From Patescibacteria group bacterium UBA6263 (GTDB lineage: Bacteria; Patescibacteriota; Gracilibacteria; Absconditabacterales; Absconditicoccaceae): a stretch of 61,254 nt of DNA. The stretch is taken from assembly GCA_002441085.1 (NCBI GenBank), contig DJVF01000011.1, positions 4,514-65,767 on the forward strand, written 5' to 3'. The notes beneath the pieces were generated by a model. It worked only from the letters and a program-made list of their open reading frames with translations, ran no database searches and was not told the origin of the DNA. Below are positions 5,059 to 60,685 of the stretch, in pieces. The position numbers were made by a program, and so were the translations under genes. Positions within the stretch are counted from its first letter, which is position 1. The number at the start of each line of letters is the position of its first letter.

Positions 5059-5062
5059 AAAC

Positions 5063-12685: not shown

Positions 12686-12733
12686 CTAAATATTATATTG
12701 TAAAAAATGTTTATTAATTATTGTTTAATATAA

Positions 12734-13921
12734 ATGAAAAAACTATTATCAAAAATTATATTCTGAATTATAAATCTGATTATGTGGATATCTTTTTGAT
12801 ATAGTTTGGATAATTTACCTTTTGATCCTTCAATTTATTCTGAAGAAATAGCTGTCTCTTTGCCAGAAAAACCATCTCAAACAATGAAATGAGTAATATA
12901 TGATTATTGTAAAAGTGTATTAAATAATTCTGTAGCTTGATTGACTATTGCTGCTGAAAATTCTTACTATTCAGCAAAAGATTCTGCTTTTGTTTACTTG
13001 ATTTGTCATAATATTAGCTCTGATTTTGATTTTATTTTTGAATCTGAATCTAATGCTAAATTTACTTGATGATCTGATTGATATTTTTTGAAGACATCTT
13101 TTAAAGATTTGTGAATAATCAATTATAGTAATGATAATGATATTGATTATTGTGATCCAAATTCTAGTTTGGGTTCTAGTTTGAGATATTGTGATCTGAC
13201 TTATCATATTCCTAGAGTATTTGATGCTTTATTGAATGATATTTTTTCTATTCAACAGGCTAGAATATATGGACTGACAGATCCAAGTTTTGAAAAAATA
13301 ATCGAAACTCAAATAGATCAATATGCATTAGATAAATTTGCAATAAAATTTTGTGATCCTACTGAATGAAAATATCCAAAACTTTGCAAGACTATGAAAA
13401 ACTATGTCATGTGATCTGCCAAGCTTTTGAAATGATTGGAAATCATGAATTATAATAATTTAAATACAACAGGCGATGATTGTAAAGAATCTTATAAGAA
13501 ATATGGATATGATGTCTTGCGCTGTGGTTTATTTGAACCGTGATTTGAATTGAAACGTAGTTATATCAATCTGGTTTATAATGAATTTTTGTATTATGCT
13601 TTGTTTGTGAGATATTATAATAATGCTATACGACAAAATAATGGTTTAGCTCCTTTGGAATATCATAAAAATTCTGAGTTGGCTAGTAGCTATCTAATCA
13701 ATCAAGCTTATGAGTTCAATAGAGCGGTCAATGCTAGTCAAAAGGCAATATCTTTGTCTATGAAAATGTTGAATGAATTGAATTTTACATTTCCTTTACA
13801 TGTGGGATTTATGATGTATCAAGAGGATTTGTTGAATTTGAGAGATAAAAGTTTGTATAAAATAGTGACTCCGCTTTATACTTTATATTGAAAACTTAGA
13901 AATGTACAGACAGATAAATAA
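12734..13921 (+). CDS. secreted/membrane-anchored hypothetical protein (395 aa)
   Basis: N-terminal hydrophobic segment, continuous frame, multiple Cys residues. Confidence 0.6.
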
Positions 13922-21848: not shown

Positions 21849-24800
21849 ATGACAATATCTCTTGAGCAGTGTCAAAATATGCTTGCTAATCAACTTGTGC
21901 AAGATTTTTCGCAACAACAAAATATATCTAAACTAACTACATCTGCTTGGTGAAAAAATAAAGCAGATTGTATTTCTGTAATGTGATGACTAGGTAAAAT
22001 ACAATCTTCGATTGCTCAAATACAACAGGATCATAAAAGTGGAACTTTGGTCCTAGAAGAAACTAATAATTCATATTTTGAAACTACAGAAACTGTATCT
22101 AAAAATAATATAGAAAGTGATATTTGATTGTTTGGGGTTTCTTTCAACCAGATTGGTAATTCTATTTTCATTTGAATATTATCTTTGATTTTTGTGTACT
22201 TGATATGGAATGTTGTAAGATATGGATTGAGATATATTTATTCGTTTGTGAATGAAAACAGATTTGTGTATTTAAAGGTTATTTTACCAAAATGAGATGA
22301 TAAATTGTGACGTGAACAATCCAAAGAACTAGCTAAAGATATGAAAGAAAAAATATGACGTATGTCACAAGTTTATATGCATTTCCATAAAGTGAAGGAA
22401 TTAAGTACACGAGACACTATGATGTATACTCTTTTTTCTAAACAAAAGATAATTATGATGTATCATTATGAATGATGAACTTTAAATTTTATAGTATGAA
22501 CATTCCCAGAATATATGAAAGTAGTAGAATGAGCTATATCTTCACAATTTTCAGATTGTTCAATAGAGAGTGTAAAAAAACCAAATTTTTTCTCCAAAAA
22601 ATATAGCGATATAACAGTGCTAGAGCCAAAAAAAGATCCAATATATACAATAAAGATGTTTAAGTTGATGCCAGATGATCCTATAAATAATATTATAGAT
22701 GCTATAGCTAAGGTACAAACTACCGATACAGTTACTATTTTGATGCCGATAAAACCTGTATGATCAAAGTTTAATGAGAAAATGAAAAAATTTGCTGATA
22801 GACTTTATAAAAATCTTGATATTAAAGATACTCCTTGGTGGCATTATATTTTTATGCCATGGAAAATATTTGGATTTCTCTTTTTTTGACCATCAAAAAA
22901 ACTTTTAGCTTGATCGTCTGGTGATGCTGATAATGTTACAATGGTACGTATGGTAAAATCAAAAGAAGATGCTATGAACGCTATATGAGAAGAAGCATGA
23001 TTGCCAGTTTTTAGATCGTGATTGATGTTGATTACATCATCTGATTCTAAATTAAACGTAGATTCTAATATAGATAATCTTGTCAGTGCCTATAATATTT
23101 ATTGAGATGAATATTCCAATCAACTTGATGAAGCACTTACCAAACATGATATGTTTTGATTTATTTTTAGGCCACTTTGGGCTATAGCTGCAAGATTTTA
23201 TTTGACATGATTTTTTTTCAAATATGCTTATTTTTCTGTAAATCAGTTAACATCCTTATTCCATTTCCCTGATTGACTATACAATCGTTCTACTATAATT
23301 GAATGGATGCAATATAAAGTATTGGCGGCTCCTTCTGATTTGCCAAATATGTCTTTAGATCTTGAAAATGGTTATGTGATGTGATGATTGTTGGCAGAAA
23401 AATATAAGGATTGAAAACTTTCAAAAATTTTGGAATCTGATTATAGAGATCATCGAGCTATTGGTAATTGAAATTCAAAAGAAGAAGTATTGAAGCCTAT
23501 AGAAGAATATAAATGAGAATCTATTGAGTGAAAAGAAATAATAGAAAAAAACTGAAAAAAGTTTGTTAAAACATATAAGGAGATATCTTATACTTGATAT
23601 AAACTTTATAAAAATTGAGTTTTGTTGTGAGTAAATATATATAGAAACTCTCTAACTCCAGTATATATGAAAAGAGATGATAGGACAAGGCATTATTATT
23701 GTATATGAAAATCGGGTACATGAAAATCTGTATTTTTACAAACTTTAGCTAGGCAAGATATTTGGAATGGTGATTGAATATGTTTGATTGATCCTCATGG
23801 AGATTTGGCCGAAGATGTATTGGCATATATACCAAAAGAAAGAGCTAAAGATGTCGTATATTTTGATGCTTGAGATGAAGATAGGCCTATGTGATTGAAC
23901 TTATATGAGATAAATAACCTTGATGAAGCAGACAGGGTAGTAAATGATGCTACAGAAATATTTATCAAAATGTTTGGTCCTGAAATATTTGGTCCTAGAA
24001 TACAAGAATATTTTAAATATGGAAGTCTGACTTTGTTGGAAGATTTTGATGATAGACCAACTCTTTTGGATGTTGTAAGATTGTTTACGGATGAATGATA
24101 TAGAGAATATAAAGTCAAAAAAGTGACAAATCCTGTAGTCAGAAATTGGCGAGAAAAAACATTTAATGCTATGTGAGATAGAGAAAAACAAGAAATTATA
24201 CCATATTTTTCTGCTAAATTTGTATCTTTTAATACCAATAGACTTATTAGAAATATTATATGACAGACAAAATCAGCATTTAAGTTTGATGATGTGATGG
24301 ATAATAGAAAGATATTGATTATAAATCTCAGTAAGGGTAAAATATGAGAAATGAATGCTCAATTGCTGGGTATGATTATTGTGTCCAAGATATATACTGC
24401 TGCTATGTGAAGAGCTAGAATGGATGAAAAGGATAGAAAAGATTTTTATTTGTACGTGGATGAATTCCAAAATTTTGTATCTTGAACTTTTGCAGATATC
24501 CTTTCTGAGGCTAGAAAGTATAGATTGTGTCTGATAATGGCTCATCAATATATTGCTCAATTGGATCCTCCTAAGTGACTTGGAGATTCTGGATGATGAA
24601 AAAATGATGTTAAAGCTGCTGTCTTTGGTAACGTCTGAACTATGCAATCATTTAAAGTCTGAGCGCCAGATGCTGAATTTCTTGAAAAAGAATATGCTCC
24701 TGTACTTTGATGACAGGATATTGTTGGTATAGCTAATTACAAAGCTTATATAAAACTAAATATAAACAATTCTACAACTCGTGTTTTTAGTATGAATATG

Positions 24801-24980
24801 ATATATTCAAAAGACTATCAAAATAAAAAGATAGTACCAATTCTAAAAGAATATTCTGCAAAAAGATATTGAAGAAAAAGAGAATTTGTCGATGCTGAAA
24901 TGCAGGCAAGACTCTGACTTGGGGTAGATGAAACTAATCTCCCAGCTAATGATAATTCGAAGGATGAATTACAGATATAA
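21849..24980 (+). CDS. VirD4/TraD-like (type IV secretion coupling-protein-type) P-loop ATPase, 1043 aa
   Basis: One TM in the N-terminal region. Walker A is HYYCIGKSGTGKS, followed by [12 protein letters not shown]. Walker B is [11 protein letters not shown], followed by [20 protein letters not shown]. Confidence 0.8.
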
Positions 24981-25683: not shown

Positions 25684-25714
25684 AAATCTTCTCTTTATTG
25701 AGGAGATTTTTTTT
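25684..25714. terminator. intrinsic terminator between convergent transcription units
   Basis: Stem AATCTTCTC / GAGGAGATT (one mismatch) followed by a T-run. Confidence 0.4.
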
Positions 25715-26639
25715 ATAATCAAAGGTATGTGTGTGATAAGAAATCTGGAATTGGCTGTTTGAGAAATGACTCTAATGATATAGTTTTGGTCCAGTATTTT
25801 CATATACCTTTTATATAAAATGTACTTGTTGGTAGATATTCGTTGATTCAAAGTGTTGGTTGTATATCTACACAAAAATTGATTGAGGTTTGAAATTCTT
25901 TGGTGTTTCATAATATAATGAAGCTTTTTAACAATGATGAATGTTTTTTATATTCATTAGATAGGTTGCTTAATCATATTGGTATATTGGATCAATAAAC
26001 TTCAAATGAATTTTTAAAATCGTTGATTATATTTGGATTGTTTGTAGATCAAGTTTTTATAAATATTCAATCTTGTAATATATCTGATCATGACATTATG
26101 ATTATTCATATTGTTATTTCTTTGTTTGGAGAAGGTGTTTTTAATTTTATGTTTGGTAATTTATCTGCCATATTTTTATAAGTTGGGCTGTTGATCAATT
26201 TATCATAGTTTGTGCCTAAATTTATTTGTCTAAATAAAGGTAATATAAATGATTGTCATGTATTTAATGATATAGGATTGTTGCATCAAGTATCAGTCCG
26301 TGTATTTAGAGAAAAAGAATTAGAATTTCAAGATATGCTTGTATAAAGATTACAATTTTTACATAAAAAATTTGATTGCACAATATCGTCTCATGTATTT
26401 ATAGTATTTTCAAATCAGACTCAGTTGTTTTGTATCTGGGTTAAAGATATTTCCAATCAGGCTTTGGATAAATAATATGATTTGTAATATCCATGTATTA
26501 TATTGTTGTATTCCATCAATTCTCTAATATAATTGGTGCTTAATATTCAAATCAATGAAGATGCTATCAATATAAAAAGAACCAAAATACTTATATTTCA
26601 TTTATTATTAATCTTTTTTGACTCATGATTGTTAGTCAT
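25713..26639 (-). CDS. PilX-like minor pilin / pilus-associated protein (308 aa)
   Basis: It has the hydrophobic N-terminus GNISILVLFILIASSLIGILS but no G|FTLIE motif. Its start overlaps the upstream pilin stop. It is the last gene of the pil operon. Confidence 0.5.
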
Positions 26640-27273
26640 TGTTATCTATTGAATTAAAAAATTGTTGTATAGGGATATTTATTCTATTGTATCGATGCTG
26701 ATTGTATGTGATAGAATAGGCTTTGGATATAATAAAAAATCATGGCTTGTGTATGCATCCTATATAGTTTGTACAGGTTGATATTCAATTAATATAATTT
26801 TGAGGGGAATCATATGGTACTATTTTGAATATAACTTGAGATAAATATGTAGTTTTGGGATTGCTTATATCGACTATTTGTCAATTATTATTTACCTGTA
26901 AATGACATTGATATCATCATGTTAAAAAATCTATACTTATTCATGGATCTAAGCAAGTTCATGTACTATATATTTCAATATTTCAATCTTGTCAGCTTAG
27001 ATATAGTATCTTGGTAAGTCATTTTTTGATTGATAGAAATCATGTTCATAGCTTGGTATGATATTTGTCATAATCTATGCTATTTCTGTCAGAAAAATTT
27101 TGTATTATTTGAGATATAAATAAGATTTCTTGTGTAACTTTTTTTTCTTGTTCTATCCTAAATGATATTTGAGAAATAAAAGTATATGTTTTCATCAAAA
27201 CAATAGATAAAATTCATATTATCACAAGTACTATAATTGTTTCGACTAGTGTAAATCATTTGGCTTTGTTCAT
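26632..27273 (-). CDS. type IV pilin-like protein (prepilin N-terminal methylation motif)
   Basis: MNKAKGFTLVETIIVLVIIGILS. The cleavage-site Gly is a TGA codon. Confidence 0.8.
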
Positions 27274-27277
27274 TTGG

Positions 27278-27880
27278 CTAATATTCTCCTATAAAACTTT
27301 CTAAAACAATTTCTCATGTCTTGGATCATTTGCTAAACATTACATGAGATTCTAATTTAATTATTTTATCAGTTGGTAATATTTGTCACAATTCTATTAT
27401 TCAAGTAAGTACTATATATCTCGAAAATATAGTTGTTTGTCAATCGGTATTGTTGTGATTGTACCAAAAAATTGTATTTCAATTTATATTTCATGAATGG
27501 TAGTATAGTCTATTATCTTGGAAATTATTGGAGTTTGTCCATTTAAATTTGGGATATTTGTCTGGTTCTAGTCATATTTGTAAATATTTTCATAAAGTCC
27601 CAGAAGCGAATGTTCAATCGCAAAATTGAGTGAGAGGAGTTATATTTTGAGGATCTGTAAATATACAGTTTCGATTTAGTTCTTTGGCAAGGTTAGCATC
27701 TCTAGCATTGAATACTAGTTCAATTCATTCTTTGGCTAAAAAGGTTGCTATATTTTTGGTTTTTGTATCATCTAATTTTTGTAAATTATTTGTAATTAAA
27801 TAAAAAACTGCCATTATTCATATTGAAAAAACAGCTATTATTATAATTATTTCTATTAAGGTGAATCACTTATTTTTCAT
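27278..27880 (-). CDS. type IV pilin-like protein
   Basis: MKNKGFTLIEIIIIIAVFSIGIMAV. The cleavage-site Gly is a TGA codon. Confidence 0.8.
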
Positions 27881-27988
27881 GATTTATATTATCTATAAAC
27901 TTTATTTTTCATTGCATGAAACAATAGTTCAAAGGTAATATAAGGTTTGTATTTTTATATTCAAGATTAAGTCATTTTGTTTTTGATT

Positions 27989-28540
27989 TTAATTTGAACA
28001 AATTTCCTGTATGATTTTACAATTTTGTGAAAGTATATACATACAATATTTTGTGTTTTGATTTATAGTGATTTGAAAATCTAATTTTGTTCATGTATTA
28101 TTGTTTTGGTCTTTTATAGTGCATCATAATTTGTATGGAGATATTTCTATTGTAGCCTTATTTTGATTTGAAGCTCAGTCGACCTTTATATTGTTGGTTT
28201 GAATAATATCTATTTCTTTTTTGCCAGTATAAATATAATTATCTCAAATATATGAATAAAAAATTGAATTATTTCATGAAAATATTTCTAAATTCAATGT
28301 ATTGAAACGATTTTGTTTTATATAGTTGGATTCTAATGAGCTGCTATAAAATCAATTAAATGCTGATGTAAATTCTTCTTTAGCTGTTTTGTATTTTAGT
28401 TTAAATATATTTTCTGATCCAAAATAAATTGTCATTCACAAAATTAAGCTTATTACAACCAATATTATAATTATTTCTATCAGAGTAAATCATGATTTGA
28501 TGTTATATTTGCCTATTTTTTTATGCTTTATTATACTCAT
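27989..28540 (-). CDS. type IV pilin-like protein
   Basis: MSIIKHKKIGKYNIKSGFTLIEIIIILVVISLIL. Its start overlaps the pilC stop by 10 nt. Confidence 0.8.
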
Positions 28541-29655
28541 ACTCATTCCATTATTTGTAATATAAGTCAAAACACTCCCAGAGCTATAATAACTATAACA
28601 ACTCATATAAAAACCAATATAACCGGTTCTATAACTTTTGCAAGACGATTGATATTGTTGTCTAATTCTTCTTCATACATTCTAAGAACATTGTCTAATG
28701 AACTTTGTAGATTAGCAGTCTCTTCTCATACTTTTATAAGAGCTGAAACATTACTTGGTATCAAATATGTTTGATCTTTAATAGTTTCGTATATTGTTTC
28801 TCATTTTTGAAGTCATATTAGAGTATTTTCTATCATATTTTGATATATTGGTATATTTAATATGTCTTTGAGTATTTGAAAAGTTTCTATATAATTCATT
28901 CATGATTCCAACATAATCCTGGTATATCTACATCGTTTTATTAAATAGTAATATTTTGTTAATTTACCAAATAATGGGATTTTTAATAAAGTTGAAAATC
29001 GCTTTTTTTTGCCAGTATCTGTAGATGAAAAAATTAATAAAATAGTTATAGTCGATACTATGATTCGCATTATTCATTTTCGATTTTCTTTTGTTCAATC
29101 TGCTATATTTTTTAATATAACGGTAACCCTTGGTAATTTAACATTTTCAAAGCTATTTGCTATTTCAAAAATTCATGGCAAAACAAATGCAAATAAAGAT
29201 ATCATAGCTACTATGGTTATTACTATTAGTATAGTAGGATAAGTCAAAGCCATCATATATTTATTTTTGATTTCATTCATATAAGTGTATTCATCTGCAA
29301 GGGACTTTAGTATTTGTACTATATTTCATGATCTTTCTCAAGCTTTGACTATACTATAATCTTTCTCATCAAAATAATCTGGTAGTCTATTGAAAGCATA
29401 TGATAGTTCCTTTCATTGTATCAGATAATGATTTACATTTTTGGATATTTCTTTTACAGAATAGTTATCAGAACTGCTTTCTATTATTTTCATAGCTTCA
29501 GATAATGCTACTCATCAATTTATTAAATATGATAATTGTCTAAAAAATATAACTTTTTCTTTGCTTCAAAAAGTTCATTTATCCATTTCACGTAAAAATG
29601 AAAGTATAGCTTTGTCTATCAGATTTGTATTGTATTTTTTATTTGATTTTTCCAT
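28531..29655 (-). CDS. pilC: type IV pilus platform protein PilC (GspF family)
   Basis: FFRQLSYLINGGVALSEAM, VKAGERSGNIVQILKSLADEY, LIKVGEETANLQSSLDNVLRMYEEE, VIEPVILVFIGVVIVIIALGVFGL. Confidence 0.9.
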
Positions 29656-29670
29656 TTTATATTACTGATT

Positions 29671-30432
29671 TTATTTATAATAAAATGCTTTTAAATATAT
29701 ATCTACATTCTGTTCTTTTTCATAAGACATAAGATCATAAGATATTTCATCAATCTTGTACAATATACGCAAATCTGTTTGTGGGTTTATTTTTCTTTCT
29801 ATATTGTGTATAAATGATAGTAGAGTATCTTTATTTTCAAAAGTTATATTCAAATATACATTTACGTAATATAGATTATTTTTGAACTCTGTAGGATCTC
29901 AGATTCCAATATTATTTATTTCTCAATTCTTTGCTGATCCTGTAAAATTTTCTTTTGTCAAATATTCATTTATATTTTTAAGAATCAACTTTTCATCTAC
30001 AGTCATTTTTTCACTAGTTAGACTGTTTGCTTGTAGATATGAAACAGCTTCTGAAAAATTTTTCTTGATTTCAGGATCTATTTGTTCACATCATTGCTGA
30101 TTATTTATGCACTCTAATATTGCGTTTTCTCAATTTTCTATCTTCAAAGAAAGATCTATATCTGCTTGTAATTTTTGCTGTTTATTTCAAAAATCTTTCA
30201 CTTCTGTTTTTATCGATTCTAGGTTTTGTTTGGAACTTTGAAAAACCTCTTGTTTGGGAAGTGCATAATTGAATATTCATATTAGTATCAATATGGTCAT
30301 TATTATTGAGTATATTCTATATCTTATAGACACTATCCTGATTTGTCCCATTTCAACTTTTTCTTCATCTTCTACTTGTAGATAAGATTTGGACTTTTTT
30401 AGAATGTTTTCTATTATATTATTATTTTTCAT
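29671..30432 (-). CDS. PilO-like pilus assembly protein
   Basis: One TM, then a coiled coil. The C-terminal part YYVNVYLNITFENKDTLLSFIHNIERK resembles the PilO fold signature. Its position is between the pilN-like gene and pilC. Confidence 0.55.
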
Positions 30433-30967
30433 TGGACTTTATTTTAGCATTTAAAACAAACTCAAAATATCTTTCTCACGTTTTATCATAAGTTTTTATT
30501 TCCATATTTTCTATAAAATCTAAATCTTCAAATCTATCTATAAGTGATTTAAAACTCCCAGATGGAGAATTGTAATATAGTAATCTTAAATTTGATACTT
30601 TTCATTTTAAACTAATTTCATTTAAATTTACTTTGAAATCTGATAAAATAATAGATTCACTTCATGAATTTATTGACTTTAGATCTTCTAATATTGATAT
30701 TATTTTGGGTATGTGTTCTGACCATGGCATAGATTGTGATGAATTTTCCAGTTCTCTTATGAGATATAATTTGTTATATCAAGTAGTCTGTTTATATTTT
30801 TCTAGTTCTATATTTTGTTGCTTTAGTATTTCTTGATTGTTTTTGATCCTTTGCTTGGTAATTTGATTTCATAGTTGGAAATATACATAAAAAAATACAG
30901 TTATAATAAATATAGCCGCAAGAAATTTGAATGTACTTTCTCGTCTAGATACAGATTGTGATTCCAT
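30422..30967 (-). CDS. PilN-like pilus assembly protein
   Basis: Short N-terminus, TM (FKFLAAIFIITVFFYVYF), then a coiled coil and ISLKGKVSNLRLLYY..FKSLIDRFEDLDFIENMEI. It overlaps the next gene by 11 nt. Confidence 0.55.
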
Positions 30968-31240: not shown

Positions 31241-34200
31241 ATGAACCAGAAAGATTTGATAAATAGTATGCTCGAATATCGAAAAAAATATGATATCTTT
31301 AAAAAATCTGTTGATCAAAGATCAGATAAATTACAATCAACAACATATGATTGACCTCCTTTTGCGTCTTGAACTCCACATTTTGGACATGGATTGACTT
31401 CGTCAATGAAAGACACTATTTTTAGATACAAAAGTATGAAGTGATATAGGGTCAATAGAGATTGGTGATGGGATTGTCATGGATTGCCTGTAGAAAAATA
31501 TGTAGAGAAAAAATTGTGAATTGATGGTAAAAGAGATATAGAGGAAAAAATAGGAGTAGAAAAATTTATTGAAGAATGTAGGGCTTCTGTAGGTAATATT
31601 AGTTGAGAATGGAGAACTTTTGTTGATCAGATATGAAGACGAGCCGACATGGATAATGCATATTTTACAATGGATCTGGATTTTATGGAATCGGTAATAC
31701 GAGTTTTTCAGAATATGTATAATCAAAATCTGGTTTATAAATGATTTAAAGTGCAACGATGTTGTCCTAGTTGTGCAACTGCGCTTTCCAATTCTGAAGT
31801 AAATGATTGATACAAAGATAAACAAGATCAGGCTATAACTATAAAATTTAAAATAAATGGTGGCATTAAAAATCGAGAAGGTTCGGAAACGACTTCTGAT
31901 TTATGTGTCCATGTTGTTACATGTGCCATCAAACAAGATAATAAATTTCTTCAATTTTATCACTCAAAGAGCCTAAGATATGAATTTCCTGGTGGGAAAA
32001 TAGAAAAATGATTTACTATCATGGATACCGTAAAAAAAGAAATTAAAGAAGAACTTGGTGTTGAGGTAAACGAAATTATTGAACTTTGAAGTTTCAAAGA
32101 AATCATAAAATGACATCTTTTGAATTTACATTACGTAGATGTGATTATAGAAGGCGAACCGAAAAATATGGAACCAGAAAAACATCCACAAATGATTTGG
32201 GCTGAAGTTATTAAATCTGAAAATAATCTGTGATTTGCAGTGAAGATTGAAAATACTATCATTGATGATGGTTTTGAAATTATGAATCAGTTTCCTGATC
32301 TGTATTACTATCATAAAAATTTTGCTAAAGAAATTACTAAATTGCAACAAAAAGAACCAGCTAATATTAATATTCTTGCATGGACTACTACTCCACGAAC
32401 TTTACCTAGTAATATGTTTTTGGCTGTAGGTAGCGATATTCGTTATTACATGGTTTTTGATAAAAGTAGTAAAGAATATTATGTAATAGCTGAAAGTCTA
32501 ATTAAACAATATTATAAGGATAGTAATGAATATATTCTGATTAATGTTTTGAAATGATCTGATTTGGAATGAATAAAATATGAACCGCTTTTCCCATACA
32601 TAAATCAAAGTAATATTGATCAAAAATATAAAGATCAGTTTTTTCAGATTATTAGCTGAGAATTTGTAAGTACAGAAGATGGTACTTGAATAGTACATAT
32701 TGCGCCAGGATTTGGAATGGAGGATTTTGATGCAGTTACAAAAATTTTACCTAGGGAAGATTCTAAAAATTGGCTTTTTATGCCTGTAAATGACTTTGGA
32801 GAATTTACAGATCAAGTAAATGATTATCAGGGGAAATCTGTTTTTGATGTAAATAAAGAGGTAATTACAAGACTTAAAGAAGAAAAAAAACTTATATGAC
32901 AGAGATCTTATTCCCATTCTTATCCTCATTGTTGGAGATGTGAAACTCCATTGATATCCAAAGCAATTACTTCTTGGTTTATCAAAGAACAAGAACTTAC
33001 AAAAATAACAGTTCCAAATGCTGAAAATATTTGATTTGTACCTGAAACTGTAAAAAATAGATTTCGCGATACTCTCAATTCTGCTCCAGATTGGAATATT
33101 TCTAGAAATAGATATCGATGATCTCCGTTACCTGTCCGAGAAAATGTCAATAATGAAGATGATAAAATGATTGTATGAACATTGGATGAAATATGGAAAA
33201 ATTCTATAAATTGATCTAAAAACCTTACAAAGCTCGTTTTTGTAAGGCATTGAAAATCTGAATATAACGTTCCAGTGCCACATTTAGTCGATAATTATGG
33301 CAAAGCTCATCTTGTAGATGAATGAAAAGAGCAAGCAAAAAAACTTGTTGAAAATTTAAGATTTTTGTCTGAAGATATAGATAATGTTGTATTTGTTATA
33401 TCACCATTGCCTAGAGCTTTTGAAACAATATTGCCATACCTTGAAAAAATATTGTGAAAATCTGAGATGAAAATTGTAGTTAAAGAATATGAAAAGGTTT
33501 TGCAAAATTATCAAAAACTTTATGATGAATGAAAACTATATAATTATATAATTGAATCTTGAGATAAAAATAGATTTGAGATATGAAAAAATATATATAT
33601 TGATTTTAGAGCAATCGAAATGTTTATACCTGAATATCAGGACAAGGAACATGATTGTAAAATTTTGAAACGAGAGGATGTAAAGCAATGAAAATGATGA
33701 GAATCTATGTTTGATATGTACAAAAGATGTGATTGATATTTACTTGATATTACATCAAAATTTAAAACCAAAACTGTTGTTACTGTCTCTCATGCAGAAG
33801 CAACGCTGATGATGTTTAAAAAAATTAGAGATTTTGATTACAATAAAAAGAAAAAAAACTTTATGCTGCGCAATGGAGAGATTAAAATTTATTATCGAGA
33901 TAATGATCATAATAAAGAAGTAGATTTACATAAACCTTATGTAGATAGTTATCGATTTAATATAGATTGAAATGAATATCGTAGGATACCTGAAGTAATG
34001 GATTGTTGGTTTGAATCTTGATCTATGCCATTTGGACAAGCATGATATATTTGAGTCGAAAGCAAAAAGTCCTTAGTTTATCCTGCAGAATTTATTATTG
34101 AGTGATTGGATCAGACTAGAGGGTGGTTTAGAGCAATGCATGTTGTAGGTAATGCAATTATGAAAAAAAATTCTTTTGATAATGTTATTATCAATGGTAT

Positions 34201-35365
34201 GATACTTGCTGAAGATGGTCGTAAAATGTCTAAAAGTTTAAATAATTATCCTGATCCCAAGTACGTTTTTGAAAGATATTGATCTGATGCTTATAGGTTG
34301 TACTTATTATCTTCTCCTGCTGTTAGAGCTGAGCCAATGAGATTTGCAGAGAAGTGAGTAGATCAGATTTATAAGGATTTTACAAGTGCTATTATCAATT
34401 CTTATAATTTTTTTGAGACTTATGCTAATGTAGATAATTTCAAATCTGATTGAACTAATGTTTATTTTGTAGGACATACTGAATCAGATTGAAAAGATGT
34501 TGACTCAGAAACTTCATCAAAATGAATAGAATCTATGAAAGATAAAAAATTGATTGAAGATGTAATTAGAACTAATCCTGATATTATTTATGTTTCTCCC
34601 ACTAAAAGAACAATCCAAACTGCTGAAAAATTTGCAGAAATATTAAAAGAATATACATGAAAAATTGTAGAAATAAAGATTGAAGAATCTTTGGCTTCAG
34701 AGGGAGATAGTATAGAATTTTATAATGATGTCTTGAATATAGATAAATCAAAAACAATTTTGATAGTATCTCATCTTTCAAGCTTCAAAAAATTATGGGC
34801 TAATATTTTTGATGATTCAAAAGATGCTAATATCAATCATCTTGAATTTATCAAATTGCCAAGCTACAAGATTGAAAATGAATTAGACAAGTGGATATTA
34901 GCTGAATTGAATAAGGTCTGAATAGAAATGGAATGATTTATGGATGTTTATGTTCTTGATGGTGCAGCTAAATCTGTTCTTGGATTTGTAGATAAAATGA
35001 ATAATCGATATATAAGGAGATCTAGAAGAAGGTTTTGGTCTTCGGGTATGAATTTGGATAAAATATCTGCTTATAATACATTACTAGAAGTAATGGAAAC
35101 TTATATGAAAATATGTTCTTGTTTTGCGCCATTTATATCAGAATATATATATCTTAAGTTGCAAAATTTTAAAAATATTGATTTTGTAGATTGAGAATCT
35201 GTCCATTTAAAAACATTACCTATTTTTAATAAATTATATGTAGATAAAAGTCTTTTAGATGAGATAGCTACAGTTAGGAGAATAATATCTTTAGGGCTGT
35301 TTATAAGATCTAAAAATGGTATAAAAGTTAAACAGCCTTTGGGTGTAATGCATATAAAATTTTAA
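31241..35365 (+). CDS. ileS: isoleucyl-tRNA synthetase (type 2-like), 1374 aa, with three inserted domains and no C-terminal domain
   Basis: The HIGH motif is PHFGHGL and the KMSKS motif is RKMSKSL. Other IleRS motifs are GWDCHGLP, AWTTTP(CGA)[21 protein letters not shown](CGA)GSPLP and DQTRGWF. The gene ends 10 codons after IKVKQPL. Confidence 0.9.
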
Positions 35366-50666: not shown

Positions 50667-53630
50667 TTATTTTTGGCTTCGAACAACTTTTTCTTCTCAA
50701 TTGATTTCTTTAAATTCTTTGGCTTTTACTTTGATTTTATCTCATATATTGTAATATTTTTTCCATTCGACTCAAGCTGGAGCAACGATGAAATTTTTGT
50801 GTAGCAATCATTCAACTCATTTGACAGTTACAAACATTCAGTAATTATAACTTAATTTGATGTATCCGTCGTATTCTTGTCAAATTTTGATGTTTTTGAT
50901 GGTAAATGTTTCATTGCCTGCCTGTCCGTTAGATAGGTTTCATTGTTTTAATGTTTTAGTGTTAGAGGGCTTAGGGGCTAAGGGGTTTGTTGTTCAGGTA
51001 GTTCCTGTATTTGTAGTCTTGCTTGCTTCTGTAGATGTTGGTTTAACTTCTTCTTTTGGCATAGCAGCTTGTATTTTACTTATATTTGGACAAAATTTTA
51101 GAAGCTCATTTTGAGCTGGATCAAGTCATGCATTTTTGATAATTTCTTCCAATTGTTTGGAGCAGTCTGTTTTGTTTCATATCCAAATCACCAATGGTCA
51201 ATTTTTCTCTATTTTAATTGTTTGATGCTCGTATATATCCAAATGAGTTTGTATAGATCAGATTTTTTGTCATTTTTTATATTTTATATTCGCTTGATCA
51301 TCTAATCATTTTGGTTTTGTATACCATATTGCTTTGTGGGAATTGTTGTCTGTATCAAATATAATTGCGTCTGGCTCTACTCAATCTATATTAAATTCTC
51401 TGAAGAGATAATCATGATCCAATACAAATTGATCTTCTAGATTTTTGACTTCTTTATCATTTAGTCATAGTCATTCAAGTTTAGCCTTTTCTGCTATTTT
51501 TTCTTGGATAGAAAATGTCTTTGCATTCCAAGCGTTCATCAATCTTTCTAATTGATCTTTTGGGGTTGCGTATCTTTGCCTTGATTGCTTACGTATCTTA
51601 TCGATAAGCTCCAATGATCAATCAGGTGTAGATATAGGTAGTGTTTTCATATTGAATGGGTCTGATGATATTCAGTCTACCATTAGCCTAGTGTAAGCTG
51701 TGAATTTTGGCAGTGATATAAGATCGTTTATGGATACCATTTCTTTGAATTGTGCAGAAATATCTACAGCATCATCACGTCATAGAGTAAAAGATATTAT
51801 ACTACCTACGTTTCCAAAGATAGCATCTTTGATTTCTGGTATCAACTGTGATGTATATTGATTTGCTACTATTAGTGATAATTTATATTTTCTAGCTTCT
51901 GACAATATAGTGACAAATGATTCTGTAGCAAAATTTTGAAACTCATCTATATAAAGATAAAAATCTCTTCTTAAATGTGCTGGTATATCTGCTCTAGACA
52001 TTGCATCTATTTGAAACTTTGTGACTAGTAATGATCAAATCATATTCGCATTATCTTCTCATATTCTTCATTTACTGAGATTGACAAGAATAATTTTTCA
52101 TTCATCCATAGCTTTTCTTAGGCTTAATTTGGTCCTAGGTTGACCGAATATATTTCTCACCAATTTGGACGATAAAAATTGTCAGACTTTGTTGGTAATA
52201 GGTCATACTGCTTCTTCTCTTTGTTTGTCATTTCGTTTGTTAAATTCTGTTTGTCGAAATTTTAATACAACTCAATCTTTGATATTGCTGATGACTTCTT
52301 CCCTAAAATTTTTATCTGTTAATATTCTTAATATATGCATAAGTGTTGCATTGGGATATTCTACAAGAGACAATACAACATTTCTAAGTATATATTCTAA
52401 TCTTGGTCATCGAGAATTACCGAAGAGTCTTTTGAAGGTTGATACTACTCCAGAAGCTACTAGATTTTTTCATTCTTCTGTATCTGACTGAAATAGATTA
52501 AATCATAATGGAAAGTCTGAATCTGCGACATCAAAAAGTATTACATCATTTATTCTATTTGTGGGTATGTGCTCTAGTATAATATCTACAAGCTCTCCGT
52601 GTGGATCTAATAATGCTAATCAGTTTCATGTCATCATGTCACTTTTGAGCATATTGGCTATAAATGTTGATTTACCAGTTCATGTTTTACCTACTATATA
52701 CATATGTCTAAATTTGTCATCTTTTTTGATTCCAAATCTGATTTTTTCTCCCCTATAATCAGTATCTCAAAGTACAGTCAAATCTTTTTCATTTGTATTG
52801 TCTAGTATCGGAATGTTCGTAGGGTATGGTAACTTTCTGTATAAGGTATATTCAAGTCATTTTATAAAATTTTCTTTTGTAGGAAGATGAAAAAAATTGA
52901 TAGCTTGATCAAAAGCTAATCGTTTGTATTTTTGAGTTTTTTTTATTTTTATTTTTCAATCTGAAACAAATGGAGAAAATACTGATATTATATTTTTTTC
53001 TGTGCTTTCTTTGATATAAATATCTTTTGTCCTAAGTATATAAGATATCGATGTCAAAATATCTTCTTTGGGTAAATTATCATCTTTTTTTTCTTCTGCT
53101 TTTTTGGTTGCTCACCATGCTCGTTTGATAAATGATCATATCTGTTGTAATGTATTTTTGCTTTTTTTGAATTTAAAGTCAAAATAAATGTTCAATTTGG
53201 AATCTTTGTCTATATTGTTGTATAAAGACAATATGTCTTTGATAGGATCCATATATTTTCAATCTTTGGTGAATGTAGATTGTGAATTTAAAACTCAATC
53301 TTCAGAAAAACGTATAAAATTTCTATTATTAGGCAATACAAATGCTTGTTCTTCTTGCAAATCAGAAGTAGGATAATTGGAATAGAATGTGTTTTGAAAA
53401 TAATTTTTGAATGATTTGGGAATTACTACAAAAAATTTGATACTGTGAGAATTTCAGCTCATTAAAAATGTTATGGTATTTGATTTTAAACTGATTAGAT
53501 TGCTAATGACAGCATTCCAGTGATTTATGCCAAATTCATTATCTTTGAATGGCTTAATCTGTAGAAATACTTTGTCTGATTTTAATTCTTTTTTTGTGGT
53601 AGTTGAATGAATTTTTGTTTGTTTTGTCAT
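50667..53630 (-). CDS. VirD4/TraD-like P-loop ATPase with a C-terminal S1 domain, 987 aa
   Basis: Walker A is HMYIVGKTGTGKS, followed by LLDPHGELVDI. Walker B is FYLYIDEFQNF, followed by SEARKYKLSLIVANQYTSQL. After a T/P/N linker comes the S1-like QEYDGYIKLSYNYGMFVTVKGVEGLLHKNF..YNIGDKIKVKAKEF. Confidence 0.8.
50908..50945. repeat. copy of the GC-rich element inside a CDS, flanked by the 9-nt direct repeat GTTTCATTG
   Basis: The reverse complement of 50917-50940 is AAACCTATCTAACGGACAGGCAGG, with the same AAACCT..AGGCAGG frame as 1412-1434 and 46160-46182. The direct repeats are at 50908-50916 and 50937-50945. Confidence 0.5.
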
Positions 53631-53873
53631 TGATATATGATTGTTTAATTAAAGTTTCAAAGGAAATACAGTTGAAACTGCTTAATGATTCGTGATATAT
53701 TATATATATTTTATAATAAAAAGCAATAAAAAGTGATAATATTTGTATTTATTATTTTTACTTGAATAGTTATTTTTGTTTGATAATATGTGTTTTTGAT
53801 CTTTAAATATTTATAAATAGATTTGTATATATTTTCTTTTAATAGATATGCTTGATTTGATCGTGTTTTTGAT

Positions 53874-54596
53874 TTGAAAATATCAGATAATATTTTTTGA
53901 AAATATAAAAGAGTATTGAAACGTGGAAATTTGTTTAGATATCAGGATGATTTTTTTGTGTGTTTATGACCCAAAATATCTTTTTTTGAGCAGTATAAAT
54001 ATGGTTATGAAATAAAAGAAGACTCTTTGAGTATGGTGTTTAAATCGTTTTTGACTGATCAAACATTGGATATGGTTGATTGGATGGTTTATAATCGATA
54101 TTCTAATTATAAATCAGTTTTGAAATATTTTATATCTTTTGATATTGAAAAGTTATTAGAAGGCTGAAAATGAAAAATAGAAACTAAAAATAAAAAAATA
54201 GAAAATAATGAAATATTGATTAAAGATTGAAAATTGACGATATCAGATAATGTATTTATATGACAACAATTGATTATTTTCCCTGATTTGTGGTCATTAT
54301 TTAATATTTTGGATGAAAATATATTATCTTTATCGGGTAATGTCTTTTTAAGTTCTCAAGATACGCAAAACCAAAAAGATAAAAAGTGGCGAATGGTAAA
54401 AAAATGATTAGCTAAAAATATATTTTGTACACACTGAGAGATATTTCAAAGTCGATTGGATTTGCAAAAAATAATTTTGTTTGACTGATATAAACGATAT
54501 TATGAAAATCAGCAAGACCCTAGATATAATGTGAATTGTGTTGTCGAAAAAATGCAAGAAATATACTCAGCTAAATTGATTTATAGCGATATCTAA
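53874..54596 (+). CDS. PriA (primosomal protein N')-like remnant, about 240 aa; start uncertain
   Basis: GQQLIIFPDLWSLFNIL, QKDKKW(W)MVKKG, IILFDGYK(W)YYENQQDPRYNVNCVV, which parallels PriA ..IIvDEEHdxsYKqxexPrYhaRdvA. There is no in-frame ATG in the first part, so TTG 53874 is taken as the start. Confidence 0.45.
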
Positions 54597-60061: not shown

Positions 60062-60685
60062 TTATTTTTTGAGAGCAAAATTGATTGTAGACTCTTCGTT
60101 TGTAAAAAGAGCAAAAATATTTCAATCTGGTTTTTTGTTTTCTTTGGTAATGGTGTTTAATAATGCTTCTCATTTTAGAAAATCTACAAACTCTTGTATA
60201 ATTTCGCTCAAAGTATTGTCATCTGTTTGATAGATCATATCTACTTTGGAGTCTACACTATAATCAGCGTCTTTTCTCATTTGATTTATAAATCTAGATA
60301 TTTCACGAGCTATTCATTCTTTTTGTAATTGAGGAGATATTTCCAAGTCTAATTTGGCTATAATATTTCAATCTACGGCTATATCATTTCAGTCTATTCA
60401 TTGATAAGCTATTTCATAATCTTCTTTTGATAATATTCGTTCATTTTTTTGATCGTCAAAAACCTTTATTTTTGAATCTTGTAGTTCTACAATATTTCAT
60501 TGTTTGGAAAATTGTATGATTTTGCCTGTGTCTTTGGTAAATTTTGATGAGATTTGAGATCATATAGGTTTGTATATTTTGCTAATGTTTAGAGAATCTG
60601 GAAGTATATCTATTTTTTTGACATTTACCTCTTCTTGTATGATATCTCAATATTTATTTAATAGATTTTGTAACTCTTGAGTCAT
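60062..60685 (-). CDS. stand-alone IleRS C-terminal domain protein (207 aa)
   Basis: YGDIIQEEVNVKKIDIL, KPIGSQISSKFTKDTGKI and LDLEISPQLQKEGIAREISRFINQMRKDADYSVDSKVDMIY. These match the segment that follows ..VRQPL.. in type 2 IleRS. Confidence 0.7.

What the first reader, a model, noticed from the sequence alone, without database searches (positions are those of the whole stretch)
50667..53630. Second VirD4/TraD-like ATPase fused to a C-terminal S1 nucleic-acid-binding domain
The core ATPase matches the first copy in motif order (GKTGTGKS, LLDPHGEL, LYIDEFQNF, SEARKY..ANQY) but is otherwise highly diverged. After a T/P/N-rich linker (about 50950-51010) the last 75 aa or so read as an S1/OB domain (QEYDGYIKLSYNYGMFVTVKGVEGLLHKNF...YNIGDKIKVKAKEFKEINGEEKVVWSQK). 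An OB-fold that binds single-stranded nucleic acid, tethered to a hexameric translocase-type ATPase, suggests direct ssDNA or RNA handling. I am not aware of this architecture being characterised.
Basis: partly seen in the sequence, partly recalled or inferred. Interest (0 to 1): 0.65.

Follow-up and report, generated by a model that had tools for sequence, protein, structure and literature searches.

The report
Soluble TrwB-like ATPase with S1 tail
This is a real, intact gene in a bacterium that reads UGA as glycine; it joins a motor protein of the kind that feeds DNA into bacterial conjugation machines to an S1 nucleic-acid-binding domain, the fusion is conserved across a whole lineage of tiny symbiotic bacteria, and nobody has studied it.

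Summary
Window 50667-53630 (minus strand) is one uninterrupted 987-codon gene, but only under genetic code 25 (UGA=Gly). All 42 in-frame "stops" are TGA.

The protein has five parts:
- a DUF8128-like N-domain
- a TrwB/VirD4-type P-loop ATPase with its all-alpha insert
- a family-specific middle domain
- a hypervariable 29-61 aa linker
- a C-terminal S1 domain

The S1 call passes the Pfam cut-off, and a pLDDT ~90 model matches only S1 domains in the PDB.

The fusion is present in 114 of the 120 closest homologues. Across orthologues from Gracilibacteria, Absconditabacteria (SR1) and Peribacteria, S1 is as conserved as the catalytic core (76% against 79%). Standard-code Patescibacteria also have DUF8128-ATPase-S1 proteins. 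Other relatives carry a treble-clef zinc finger instead.

The protein has no membrane anchor and no T4SS, relaxase, phage or defence neighbours, so it is not a canonical coupling protein.

Best reading: a ring ATPase whose tethered S1 domains capture single-stranded nucleic acid for translocation. Whether it feeds an envelope machine or works in cytoplasmic RNA/DNA metabolism is unresolved. No paper describes it. I rate it a new variant of a known kind, of moderate interest.

The parts
50667..53630 (-). Complete CDS (g47), 987 aa plus TAA stop, readable only with genetic code 25 (42 in-frame TGA = Gly)
   Evidence: full-length orthologues at 55-90% identity
52791..53579 (-). N-terminal alpha/beta domain (res ~18-280), a divergent DUF8128-type domain; it takes the place of the transmembrane anchor of canonical coupling proteins
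   Evidence: hhalign probability 97.6%, E 4e-12 over 258 columns against the N-domains of the P0287 group, in which P0287 is annotated PF26449. AF2 pLDDT ~70-90. No TM segment: maximum 19-residue Kyte-Doolittle average 1.13.
51531..52790 (-). TrwB/VirD4-type P-loop ATPase core (res 281-700)
   Evidence: Pfam DUF87 38.1 bits, TraG-D_C 21.6, TrwB_AAD_bind 19.5. All three hit 42/42 orthologues. Foldseek to TrwB, Cag-beta and DotL. 79% mean pairwise identity among orthologues.
52668..52691 (-). Walker A, GKTGTGKS (res 314-321); the fourth codon is TGA
   Evidence: residues invariant in A2
52095..52481 (-). All-alpha insertion between Walker A and Walker B (res ~384-512), equivalent to the all-alpha domain of TrwB
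   Evidence: Helices 384-508 in the AF2 model. Long-span TrwB_AAD_bind matches in relatives, e.g. P0191 327-649.
51930..51962 (-). Walker B region, FYLYIDEFQNF (res 557-567); followed by SEARKY (51885-51902) and ANQY (51855-51866)
   Evidence: invariant columns; nearly invariant across 146 diverse representatives
51033..51530 (-). Helical connector plus compact alpha/beta middle domain (res ~701-866); family-specific and absent from some orthologues
   Evidence: pLDDT above 90 in the C-terminal model. No Pfam or NCBIfam hit. Found only in fragments of this family. Missing in L019, L020 and others. 46% mean identity.
50919..51032 (-). Low-complexity T/K/N/G/P/S-rich flexible linker (res ~867-904)
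   Evidence: pLDDT below 50. 17% mean identity and length 29-61 aa among orthologues. Composition.
50670..50918 (-). C-terminal S1 (OB-fold) domain (res ~905-987; Pfam match 915-973)
   Evidence: Pfam S1 23.3/28.7 bits against cut-off 22. Profile against PDB hits bS1 at E 1e-6. AF2 pLDDT ~90 with five strands plus a helix. Foldseek hits only S1 domains, e.g. 2k52 with TM 0.78 and rmsd 2.7 A. 76% mean identity.
21849..24980 (+). Paralogue g21 (the 'first copy'): T4CP-like ATPase with a ~590 aa N-terminal region and a strong TM segment at res 101-127, no S1; also conserved across the clade

Best explanation
The gene encodes a TrwB/VirD4-type ring ATPase that has lost the membrane anchor. It carries a DUF8128-like N-domain and, on a floppy 30-60-residue tether, a C-terminal S1 domain.

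**Proposed mechanism.**
1. The protein assembles as a hexamer, as its solved relatives do.
2. The six tethered S1 domains capture single-stranded nucleic acid.
3. They hand it to the ring, whose ATP hydrolysis moves or threads it.

The S1 domain would play the part that the tethered gamma domain plays for FtsK, or the OB-fold primary site plays for Rho.

**Favoured physiological role.** I favour a relaxase-independent substrate receptor/motor. It would deliver ssDNA or RNA to an envelope machine, for instance the relaxase-less Patescibacterial T4SS, possibly docking on the membrane-anchored paralogue g21.

**Shown.** Intact gene; domain identities; catalytic motifs invariant; S1 as constrained as the ATPase; linker unconstrained; the fusion is conserved across one clade and present in other branches.

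**Inferred.** Hexamer formation, nucleic-acid binding, translocation, and the envelope destination.

The shared biochemical core (a ring ATPase acting on single-stranded nucleic acid through S1) has about 0.65 probability. The envelope-delivery role specifically has about 0.35.
For: - **Fold and motifs.** TrwB, Cag-beta and DotL are the best structural matches. Walker A, Walker B, SEARKY and ANQ are invariant.
- **S1.** It is confirmed by Pfam, by a PDB profile search and by AF2 plus Foldseek. The YNYGMFVTVK..VE.LLHK core is more than 90% conserved.
- **Selection.** S1 is 76% identical among orthologues, the ATPase 79%, and the linker 17% with length 29-61 aa.
- **Conservation.** S1 is present in 114 of the 120 closest homologues; the other six are truncated.
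- **Recurrence.** S1 is also attached to this ATPase family in standard-code Patescibacteria, including members with a TM segment ahead of the ATPase: P0200, P0234, P0287 and P0307, with S1 scores of 32-79 bits. Other branches carry a treble-clef zinc finger in the same C-terminal position. This variable tail parallels the variable substrate-recognition tails of coupling proteins such as TraD and DotL (review PMC12857230).
- **Published context.** Patescibacteria have a near-universal chromosomal T4SS, almost no relaxases, and about two VirD4-type genes per genome encoded away from virB4 (PMC12102498). The Southlakia T4SS cluster has no recognisable coupling protein or relaxase (PMC10633639).
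- **Two paralogues.** Both the soluble S1 form and the membrane form are conserved in the clade, for example in SR1 RAAC1.
Against: - The protein has no TM segment, and no T4SS, pilus, ComEC or relaxase gene is a conserved neighbour. The 17 loci compared show only local synteny with housekeeping genes.
- In Southlakia the t4cp homologue was not essential although the T4SS was (PMC12102498).
- S1 domains are overwhelmingly found in cytoplasmic RNA-metabolism proteins, and every Foldseek hit was of that kind.
- No nucleic-acid binding, oligomer state or partner has been measured.
- The full-length AF2 model is only moderate (pLDDT 69, pTM 0.46).
Confidence: 0.35

Rival explanations
1. The biochemistry is the same (S1-loaded ring ATPase on single-stranded nucleic acid), but the job is purely cytoplasmic and housekeeping. 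It would be an RNA translocase or remodeller (RNA decay, quality control, Rho-like termination), or an ssDNA motor in repair or recombination, evolved from a coupling protein.
For: - The protein is soluble.
- Its neighbours are always housekeeping genes: YidC and GroES/EL, ribosomal proteins and PheRS, a sigma factor with MurA and MreB, and L27.
- It behaves as a vertically inherited, strongly conserved gene.
- S1's closest relatives are bS1, Tex, RNase R, DHX8 and YabR, all RNA-binding proteins.
- The T4CP homologue is dispensable for the essential T4SS function in Southlakia, and the authors themselves raise exaptation.
Against: - To my knowledge no FtsK/HerA/VirD4-family ATPase is known to act on RNA.
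- No nuclease, RNase or polymerase partner is conserved nearby.
- Relatives with TM segments ahead of the ATPase also carry S1, which fits a membrane-proximal role better.
Confidence: 0.3
2. The S1 domain does not bind the motor's substrate. It is a docking or regulatory module, for example tethering the ATPase to ribosomes, RNA polymerase or an RNA scaffold, or auto-inhibiting the ring. The ATPase would move protein or dsDNA, as other family members do.
For: S1 domains can serve as interaction or localisation modules: bS1 works on the ribosome, and the integrative PDB models 9a74 (YkuJ-NusA) and 9a5a (YabR-IF3) appear among the hits. Many T4CPs transport proteins, not DNA (PMC12857230). The long flexible linker suits a tether as well as it suits a loader.
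Against: The positions aligning with the conserved aromatic and histidine residues of the Pfam S1 consensus are invariant. S1 attachment recurs across the family, and the alternative tail module is a zinc finger, which suggests selection for nucleic-acid contact.
Confidence: 0.1
3. It belongs to a mobile element (conjugative element or prophage) or to an anti-phage defence system that uses a HerA/VirD4-like ATPase.
For: PADLOC mad8 matches at 60.6 bits (E 4e-17) over res 285-646, with several HerA models hitting the P-loop. Characterised members of the family come from conjugative elements.
Against: - The PADLOC hits cover only the generic ATPase core, and no other defence gene lies nearby.
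- No integrase, relaxase or VirB4 was found among the window proteins scanned.
- GC content is flat across the window.
- Gene order is syntenic with a related genome.
- Only one distant core-only relative turned up among 2.9 million viral contigs.
- Orthologues are present across the clade and look vertically inherited.
Confidence: 0.04
4. The fusion is an assembly or annotation artefact, or a decaying pseudogene.
For: Under the standard code the frame has 42 stops.
Against: All 42 are TGA, and they align with Gly in standard-code homologues. The same continuous architecture is found in more than 100 independent assemblies, including a closed SR1 genome. S1 is under strong constraint.
Confidence: 0.01

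Closest known systems
TrwB / VirD4 / TraD / TraG type IV coupling proteins (T4CPs)
   Same: P-loop nucleotide-binding domain with an all-alpha insertion. Pfam TrwB_AAD_bind and TraG-D_C match. This is the best structural match (TrwB TM-score ~0.55, rmsd ~5 A; also Cag-beta and DotL). The C-terminal tail is variable, as are the substrate-recognition tails of T4CPs.
   Different: It has no N-terminal transmembrane anchor (a DUF8128-like soluble domain sits there instead). It is not encoded with VirB4, a relaxase or any T4SS gene. It carries an S1 domain, which I found described for no characterised T4CP.
Orphan VirD4-type T4CP homologues of Patescibacteria (Quinonero-Coronel et al. 2025, PMC12102498)
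   Same: This gene and g21 fit that description: about two per genome, chromosomal, far from virB4, with possible exaptation suggested by the authors.
   Different: In the passages I retrieved, that study does not describe domain architectures. The S1 fusion, the DUF8128-like N-domain, the zinc-finger alternative and the split into soluble and membrane paralogues are not reported there.
FtsK / SpoIIIE
   Same: Same ATPase superfamily. A ring motor with a small nucleic-acid-recognition domain (gamma) on a flexible linker at the C-terminus, which loads the motor on its substrate (from established knowledge).
   Different: FtsK gamma is a winged helix that reads dsDNA (KOPS). Here the module is S1, which binds single strands. 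FtsK lacks the all-alpha insert and is membrane-anchored. The Pfam FtsK_SpoIIIE score is below cut-off (19 against 24).
Rho transcription terminator (functional analogy only)
   Same: A hexameric ring ATPase that uses OB-fold domains as primary sites to capture single-stranded RNA before threading it through the ring (from established knowledge).
   Different: An unrelated ATPase lineage (RecA/F1-like). In Rho the OB fold is N-terminal and rigidly attached. There is no evidence here of any link to transcription.
HerA (DUF87) helicases and CedD
   Same: DUF87 passes its Pfam cut-off. HerA structures are significant Foldseek hits. The best NCBIfam hit is CedD.
   Different: HerA alignments are loose (rmsd ~16 A). 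No NurA-type nuclease partner was seen. The CedD score is 35 bits against a cut-off of 600 and covers only the P-loop region.

Membership tests
VirD4/TrwB-type type IV coupling protein | FtsK/HerA-superfamily P-loop domain with Walker A and Walker B | tested here: met
   GKTGTGKS and YIDEFQNF are invariant. DUF87 scores 38.1 bits against cut-off 23.2. Foldseek matches TrwB at E 8e-10.
VirD4/TrwB-type type IV coupling protein | All-alpha domain inserted in the nucleotide-binding domain | tested here: met
   Helices 384-508 lie between Walker A and B in the model. TrwB_AAD_bind hits 42/42 orthologues. In the target itself the score is 19.5, just under the cut-off of 20.5.
VirD4/TrwB-type type IV coupling protein | N-terminal transmembrane anchor | tested here: not met
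   The maximum 19-residue Kyte-Doolittle average is 1.13, so no segment is predicted; g21 reaches 2.34. The N-terminus is a DUF8128-like soluble domain.
VirD4/TrwB-type type IV coupling protein | Encoded with, or functionally linked to, a T4SS (VirB4) and/or a relaxase | tested here: not met
   None was found among the window proteins scanned or in the related loci examined. Linkage at a distance cannot be excluded.
VirD4/TrwB-type type IV coupling protein | Hexamer with DNA-stimulated ATPase that recruits substrates to a secretion channel | not testable with these tools
   Needs purified protein and genetics.
S1 domain (PF00575, OB fold) | Profile score at or above Pfam's gathering threshold | tested here: met
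   23.3 bits in the whole protein and 28.7 bits alone, against cut-off 22. 25/42 orthologues hit at E<0.01. A family profile hits bS1 in the PDB at E 1.3e-6.
S1 domain (PF00575, OB fold) | Five-stranded antiparallel beta-barrel with a helix between strands 3 and 4 | tested here: met
   AF2 model of orthologue fragment P0122: strands 210-218, 222-227, 230-235, helix 247-250, strands 256-267, 270-277, pLDDT ~90. All significant Foldseek hits are S1 domains.
S1 domain (PF00575, OB fold) | Conserved nucleic-acid-contact residues (aromatic residues on strands 2-3, His after strand 3) | tested here: inconclusive
   YNYGmFvTVK..VE.LLHK is at least 90% conserved and lines up with the Pfam consensus. 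The mapping to contact residues rests on my recollection of S1 structures, not on a superposition done here.
S1 domain (PF00575, OB fold) | Binds single-stranded RNA or DNA | not testable with these tools
   Needs a binding assay.
HerA helicase | Membership of the HerA equivalogs (NCBIfam) and a NurA-type partner | tested here: not met
   helicase_HerA scores 14 bits against 970, and HerA_antiphage 19 against 800. No nuclease neighbour was found.
CedD DNA-translocating ATPase | NCBIfam NF053655 at its cut-off | tested here: not met
   35.3 bits against a cut-off of 600; the match covers only res 287-357.
MADS defence system (mad8) | mad8-like ATPase together with other mad genes | tested here: not met
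   mad8 scores 60.6 bits over the ATPase core only. The two flanking proteins scanned (g45, g48) gave no mad hit, and the neighbours are housekeeping genes.
DUF8128 (PF26449) N-domain proteins | Homology of the N-terminal ~260 aa to the DUF8128-annotated N-domain | tested here: met
   Profile-profile probability 97.6%, E 4e-12, 258 columns, against the P0287 group, in which P0287 is annotated PF26449. P0200 and P0234 carry the same annotation. The local Pfam scan did not report PF26449 directly for the target.

The most novel reading that the evidence does not exclude
A coupling-protein-derived ring ATPase that works on RNA. It would be either a cytoplasmic, Rho- or helicase-like RNA translocase, or a motor that loads RNA (not relaxase-piloted DNA) into the Patescibacterial T4SS for exchange with the host cell. 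To my knowledge this would be the first RNA-handling member of the FtsK/HerA/VirD4 lineage, and it would give the 'orphan' T4CPs of these bacteria a function.
Probability: 0.2. Interest if true: 0.8.

Novelty: new variant of a known kind. Interest (0 to 1): 0.5.

Why it matters
Patescibacteria (CPR) make up a large share of bacterial diversity and live attached to other cells. Published work (PMC12102498) reports three things about them: a near-universal T4SS-like machine, almost no relaxases, and about two 'orphan' VirD4-type ATPases per genome whose role is unknown.

This finding shows that, in the UGA=Gly lineage (Gracilibacteria, Absconditabacteria/SR1 and Peribacteria), one of the two orphans is a soluble protein. 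Its most conserved accessory part is an S1 single-strand-binding domain on a flexible tether. The same layout occurs elsewhere in the phylum.

That turns a vague 'exapted ATPase' into a concrete hypothesis that can be tested at the bench: direct, relaxase-independent handling of ssDNA or RNA by a T4CP-type motor.

There is also a practical point. Of the 97 closest homologues with a readable Walker A, 41 have Trp where Gly belongs (GKTWTGKS), as expected from code-4 translation. That lowers their domain scores and probably helps explain why the S1 fusion is rarely annotated.

Tried and rejected
- **Table 11 and table 4 translations.** Rejected in favour of code 25.
- **Exhaustive representative search.** I used P0001 and then found it is a code-4 mistranslation with 5% Trp. 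The search still worked but is somewhat less sensitive.
- **Full-length AF2 model.** It did not resolve S1 (pLDDT below 50 at res 905-939). I solved this by modelling a natural C-terminal fragment, P0122.
- **C-terminal module alone.** Searching with it found only fragments of this family plus generic S1 proteins, so it has no other host architecture.
- **Middle domain.** No Pfam or NCBIfam hit. None of the Foldseek hits covers it, so its fold is not assigned.
- **Conserved partners.** I looked for conserved neighbours across 17 loci and found none beyond local synteny.
- **Pilus link.** g21's adjacency to the type IV pilus cluster is not conserved in SR1 RAAC1.
- **DNA-uptake motor replacing ComFA.** Not supported: the ComFC/ComFA family is reported as widespread in CPR (PMC6744442).
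- **Defence system.** PADLOC gave only domain-level hits.
- **Phage or mobile origin.** Essentially absent from viral contigs.
- **CedD membership.** Far below cut-off.
- **g48 as a PriA remnant.** Only E ~0.02, inconclusive.
- **Literature.** Searches on DUF8128, S1 with coupling proteins, and cultured Absconditabacteria found nothing on this protein.
- **NJ tree.** It is rough (distance method, midpoint root). I use it only to say that S1-bearing members are not confined to one branch, not to count independent fusion events.
Full report
**1. The observation**

With the bacterial standard code the region has no long ORF. The minus-strand frame from 53630 to 50667 is interrupted 42 times. Every interruption is TGA, and the frame ends with a single TAA.

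Across the window's long ORFs, TGA is 4.3% of codons while all four GGN codons together are 2.0%. Reading TGA as Trp would give an implausible 5% Trp. Reading it as Gly gives a normal 6% Gly.

At the 17 TGA positions inside the ATPase core, 98 standard-code homologues have Gly 65% of the time, and Trp is not among the five commonest residues.

The window therefore uses genetic code 25 (UGA=Gly), the code of Gracilibacteria and Absconditabacteria (SR1).

Under code 25 the gene (g47 in my map) encodes 987 residues, and the quoted motifs are all there. One small error: the protein ends VVRSQK (codon CGA), not VVWSQK.

The 'first copy' is g21 (21849-24980, plus strand, 1043 aa). It is 34% identical over the ATPase core only.

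**2. Anatomy**

*N-terminal domain (res ~18-280).* This is a confidently modelled alpha/beta domain. Profile-profile comparison shows it is homologous to the N-domain of a group of relatives in which P0287 is annotated DUF8128/PF26449 (probability 97.6%, E 4e-12, 258 columns). There is no predicted transmembrane segment anywhere in the protein. The paralogue g21 has a strong one at res 101-127.

*ATPase core (res 281-700).* Pfam gives:
- DUF87, 38.1 bits (cut-off 23.2)
- TraG-D_C, 21.6 bits (cut-off 22)
- TrwB_AAD_bind, 19.5 bits (cut-off 20.5)

All three hit 42 of 42 correctly translated orthologues. The model has an all-helical insertion at res 384-508 between Walker A and Walker B, like the all-alpha domain of TrwB.

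Foldseek against the PDB puts TrwB first among compact matches (TM-score about 0.55 on the target, rmsd about 5 A, about 375 columns). Cag-beta and DotL follow. VirB4 and HerA align more loosely. NCBIfam offers nothing near a cut-off; the best is CedD at 35 bits against 600.

*Connector and middle domain (res ~701-866).* A helical connector leads into a compact alpha/beta domain, modelled at pLDDT above 90. It has no Pfam or NCBIfam match. It is found only in fragments of this family, and some orthologues lack it.

*Linker (res ~867-904).* It is rich in T, K, N, G, P and S, modelled as disordered, only 17% identical among orthologues, and 29-61 residues long.

*S1 domain (res ~905-987).*
- Pfam scores 23.3 bits in context and 28.7 bits alone (cut-off 22).
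- A family profile hits ribosomal protein S1 around residues 165-249 in the PDB at E about 1e-6.
- The full-length model left this part unresolved. I therefore modelled a naturally occurring, correctly translated C-terminal fragment of an orthologue (P0122).
- That model has the S1 region at pLDDT about 90, with three strands, a short helix and two strands.
- Every significant Foldseek hit is an S1 domain: bS1, M. tuberculosis RpsA, Tex, DHX8, YabR, GSP13, RNase R, and MJ1198 at TM 0.78 and rmsd 2.7 A.

**3. Conservation and distribution**

The 120 best of 1943 database hits are full-length proteins of 920-1030 aa, 55-90% identical. Where named, they come from Gracilibacteria, Absconditabacteria/SR1 and Peribacteria. 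Of these, 114 have the S1 tail; the other six are truncated.

Among 42 correctly translated orthologues, S1 is 76% identical on average. That is essentially the same as the ATPase core (79%) and far above the N-domain (52%), the middle domain (46%) and the linker (17%).

A scan of GTDB species representatives found the complete architecture in about 20 species of these lineages. Elsewhere in Patescibacteria only the ATPase core aligned, at 43-50% identity.

The exhaustive representative search shows a very large family: 17,911 representatives at E<=0.001 and 4,573 at E<=1e-30.

Within the best 146 representatives, S1 is found throughout the recoded clade. It is also found in standard-code proteins elsewhere in a rough tree:
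- P0307, a short form, S1 79 bits
- P0287, 56 bits
- P0234, 35 bits
- P0200, 32 bits
- P0208, 26 bits; JGI calls it 'predicted RNA-binding protein with RPS1 domain'

P0200, P0234 and P0287 are DUF8128-ATPase-S1 proteins, the same layout as the target.

Many other relatives are short forms that begin at the ATPase. In their tails, the only other recurrent Pfam domain is a treble-clef zinc finger.

The ATPase family therefore repeatedly carries a small accessory module at its C-terminus. S1 is a nucleic-acid-binding fold. What this zinc finger binds is unknown, though treble-clef fingers commonly contact nucleic acid. Whether S1 was fused once or several times needs a proper phylogeny.

A side result: of the 97 top homologues with a readable Walker A, 41 read GKTWTGKS. 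These were translated with code 4, putting Trp for Gly. This depresses S1 scores and probably helps explain why few entries carry a precomputed PF00575 hit.

**4. Genomic setting**

The window is ordinary chromosome. GC content is flat at 0.23-0.31. Genes identified include:
- SSB and signal peptidases I and II
- DnaG
- a tRNA synthetase and tRNA/rRNA-modification enzymes
- MgsA/RarA
- a type IV pilus cluster

No VirB4, relaxase or integrase was found among the proteins scanned.

The target is followed 22 nt downstream, on the same strand, by a CNNM/CBS/CorC transporter gene. The region is syntenic with Gracilibacteria MAG GCA_021734475.1.

Across 17 loci the only recurrent neighbours are local, including a small divergent upstream gene in 7 loci. 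SR1 genomes place the gene among unrelated housekeeping genes.

The standard-code S1-bearing relatives also sit among housekeeping genes: YidC and GroES/EL, a sigma factor with MurA and MreB, and L27.

The family is essentially absent from 2.9 million viral contigs. PADLOC gives only ATPase-core-level hits: mad8 at 60 bits, plus HerA P-loop matches.

The paralogue g21 is likewise conserved across the clade, including SR1 RAAC1. Its position beside the pilus genes in this window is not conserved.

**5. What it most likely does**

*Shown:*
- an intact, strongly constrained gene
- a TrwB-type ATPase with all catalytic motifs
- a bona fide S1 domain on an unconstrained tether
- no membrane anchor
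- no mobile-element or T4SS neighbourhood
- S1 present on several branches of this ATPase family

*Inferred from the families:* solved relatives (TrwB, DotL, Cag-beta, FtsK, HerA) are hexameric rings that move nucleic acid, or substrates attached to it. S1 domains bind single-stranded nucleic acid.

The most economical mechanism is a ring with six tethered S1 domains. They capture a single strand and deliver it to the motor. This is analogous to FtsK's tethered gamma domain and, more loosely, to Rho's OB-fold primary sites. I give this biochemical core about 0.65.

Where it acts is open.

*In favour of an envelope role.* It would be a relaxase-independent substrate receptor, possibly docking on g21 or the T4SS.
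- Every characterised VirD4-type protein works at a T4SS.
- Patescibacteria have a near-universal chromosomal T4SS, almost no relaxases, and T4CP genes encoded elsewhere (PMC12102498; PMC10633639).
- Members with TM segments ahead of the ATPase also carry S1.

*Against it, and in favour of a cytoplasmic RNA/DNA role.*
- The target is soluble.
- Its neighbours are housekeeping genes.
- S1 is strongly associated with RNA metabolism.
- The t4cp homologue of Southlakia is dispensable although its T4SS is essential.

I put the envelope role at 0.35 and the cytoplasmic role at 0.30.

A DNA-uptake role replacing ComFA gets no support, because the ComFC/ComFA family is reported as widespread in CPR (PMC6744442).

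**6. Comparison with what is known, and novelty**

The protein works like, and folds like, a VirD4/TrwB coupling protein. It fails two defining features of that family: the membrane anchor and linkage to a T4SS or relaxase. I therefore do not file it as a canonical T4CP.

It belongs to the 'orphan T4CP homologues' of Patescibacteria counted in PMC12102498. The retrieved passages of that paper, and my other literature searches, do not mention the S1 fusion.

Databases label the orthologues 'DUF87 domain-containing protein', 'type IV secretion system DNA-binding domain-containing protein' or 'hypothetical protein'.

I rate it a new variant of a known kind. The parts are familiar. The combination, its conservation as a chromosomal gene across a recoded bacterial lineage, and the soluble state are not described.

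Interest is moderate (0.5). A T4SS or CPR specialist would find it a useful and testable lead, not a shock. If the substrate proved to be RNA, it would be considerably more notable.

Noticed in passing
whole window (1-61254): The whole window uses genetic code 25 (UGA=Gly): TGA is 4.3% of codons and aligns with Gly in standard-code homologues. The organism is a Gracilibacteria/Absconditabacterales-type Patescibacterium. The closest named genome is MAG GCA_021734475.1.
   Followed up: yes
public homologues P0001, P0002, P0004 and others: Of the 97 closest database orthologues with a readable Walker A, 41 are translated with code 4, putting Trp for Gly (e.g. GKTWTGKS, 5% Trp). This lowers domain scores and probably helps explain why few entries carry a precomputed S1 hit.
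   Followed up: partly
31241-35365 (+), g30: A 1374-aa class I (Ile-type) tRNA synthetase with a NUDIX domain (res 243-299) and histidine-phosphatase (His_Phos_1) stretches inserted into the catalytic domain. This is an unusual architecture. A free-standing DUF5915 protein, which I recall as an IleRS C-terminal-type domain, is encoded at 60062-60685 (-).
   Followed up: partly
25713-30967 (-), g23-g29: A type IV pilus/pseudopilus cluster. g24-g26 have N-terminal methylation motifs, g23 is pilin-like by eye, g27 is PilC/T2SSF, and g28-g29 are unknown. It sits next to the membrane-anchored T4CP-like paralogue g21. The adjacency is not conserved in SR1 RAAC1.
   Followed up: partly
21849-24980 (+), g21: The 'first copy' is itself uncharacterised. 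It has a ~590-aa N-terminal region with a strong TM segment, then the ATPase, and no C-terminal extension. Full-length orthologues (61-80% identity) occur across the same clade, mostly labelled 'hypothetical protein'.
   Followed up: partly
53817-54596 (+), g48: A small gene divergent from the target, conserved at that position in 7 of 17 related loci. It has no Pfam hit and only weak PriA-like NCBIfam matches (E ~0.02), so it may be a degenerate PriA-like fragment.
   Followed up: partly
relatives P0213, P0215, P0237, P0263 and others: Short-form Patescibacterial T4CP-like ATPases, which start at the ATPase, often carry a treble-clef zinc finger (PF23477) in the C-terminal tail, where the target has S1: 11 of 62 long-tailed representatives.
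   Followed up: partly
7947-10094 (+), g11: A 715-aa protein with an N-terminal RNase_T/DnaQ-type 3'-5' exonuclease domain followed by ~530 aa with no Pfam match.
   Followed up: no
4492-5626 (+), g7 and g8; 11129-15884 (+), g13-g15: g7 and g8 are tandem paralogous ~188-aa membrane proteins; g7 has no Pfam hit and g8 was not scanned. g13-g15 are three large proteins with hydrophobic N-termini and many cysteines, with no Pfam hits. They may be surface proteins of the epibiont.
   Followed up: no
target res 285-646: The PADLOC model mad8 (MADS defence system) matches the ATPase core at 60.6 bits, which suggests mad8 is itself a T4CP-like ATPase. No other mad genes are nearby.
   Followed up: partly
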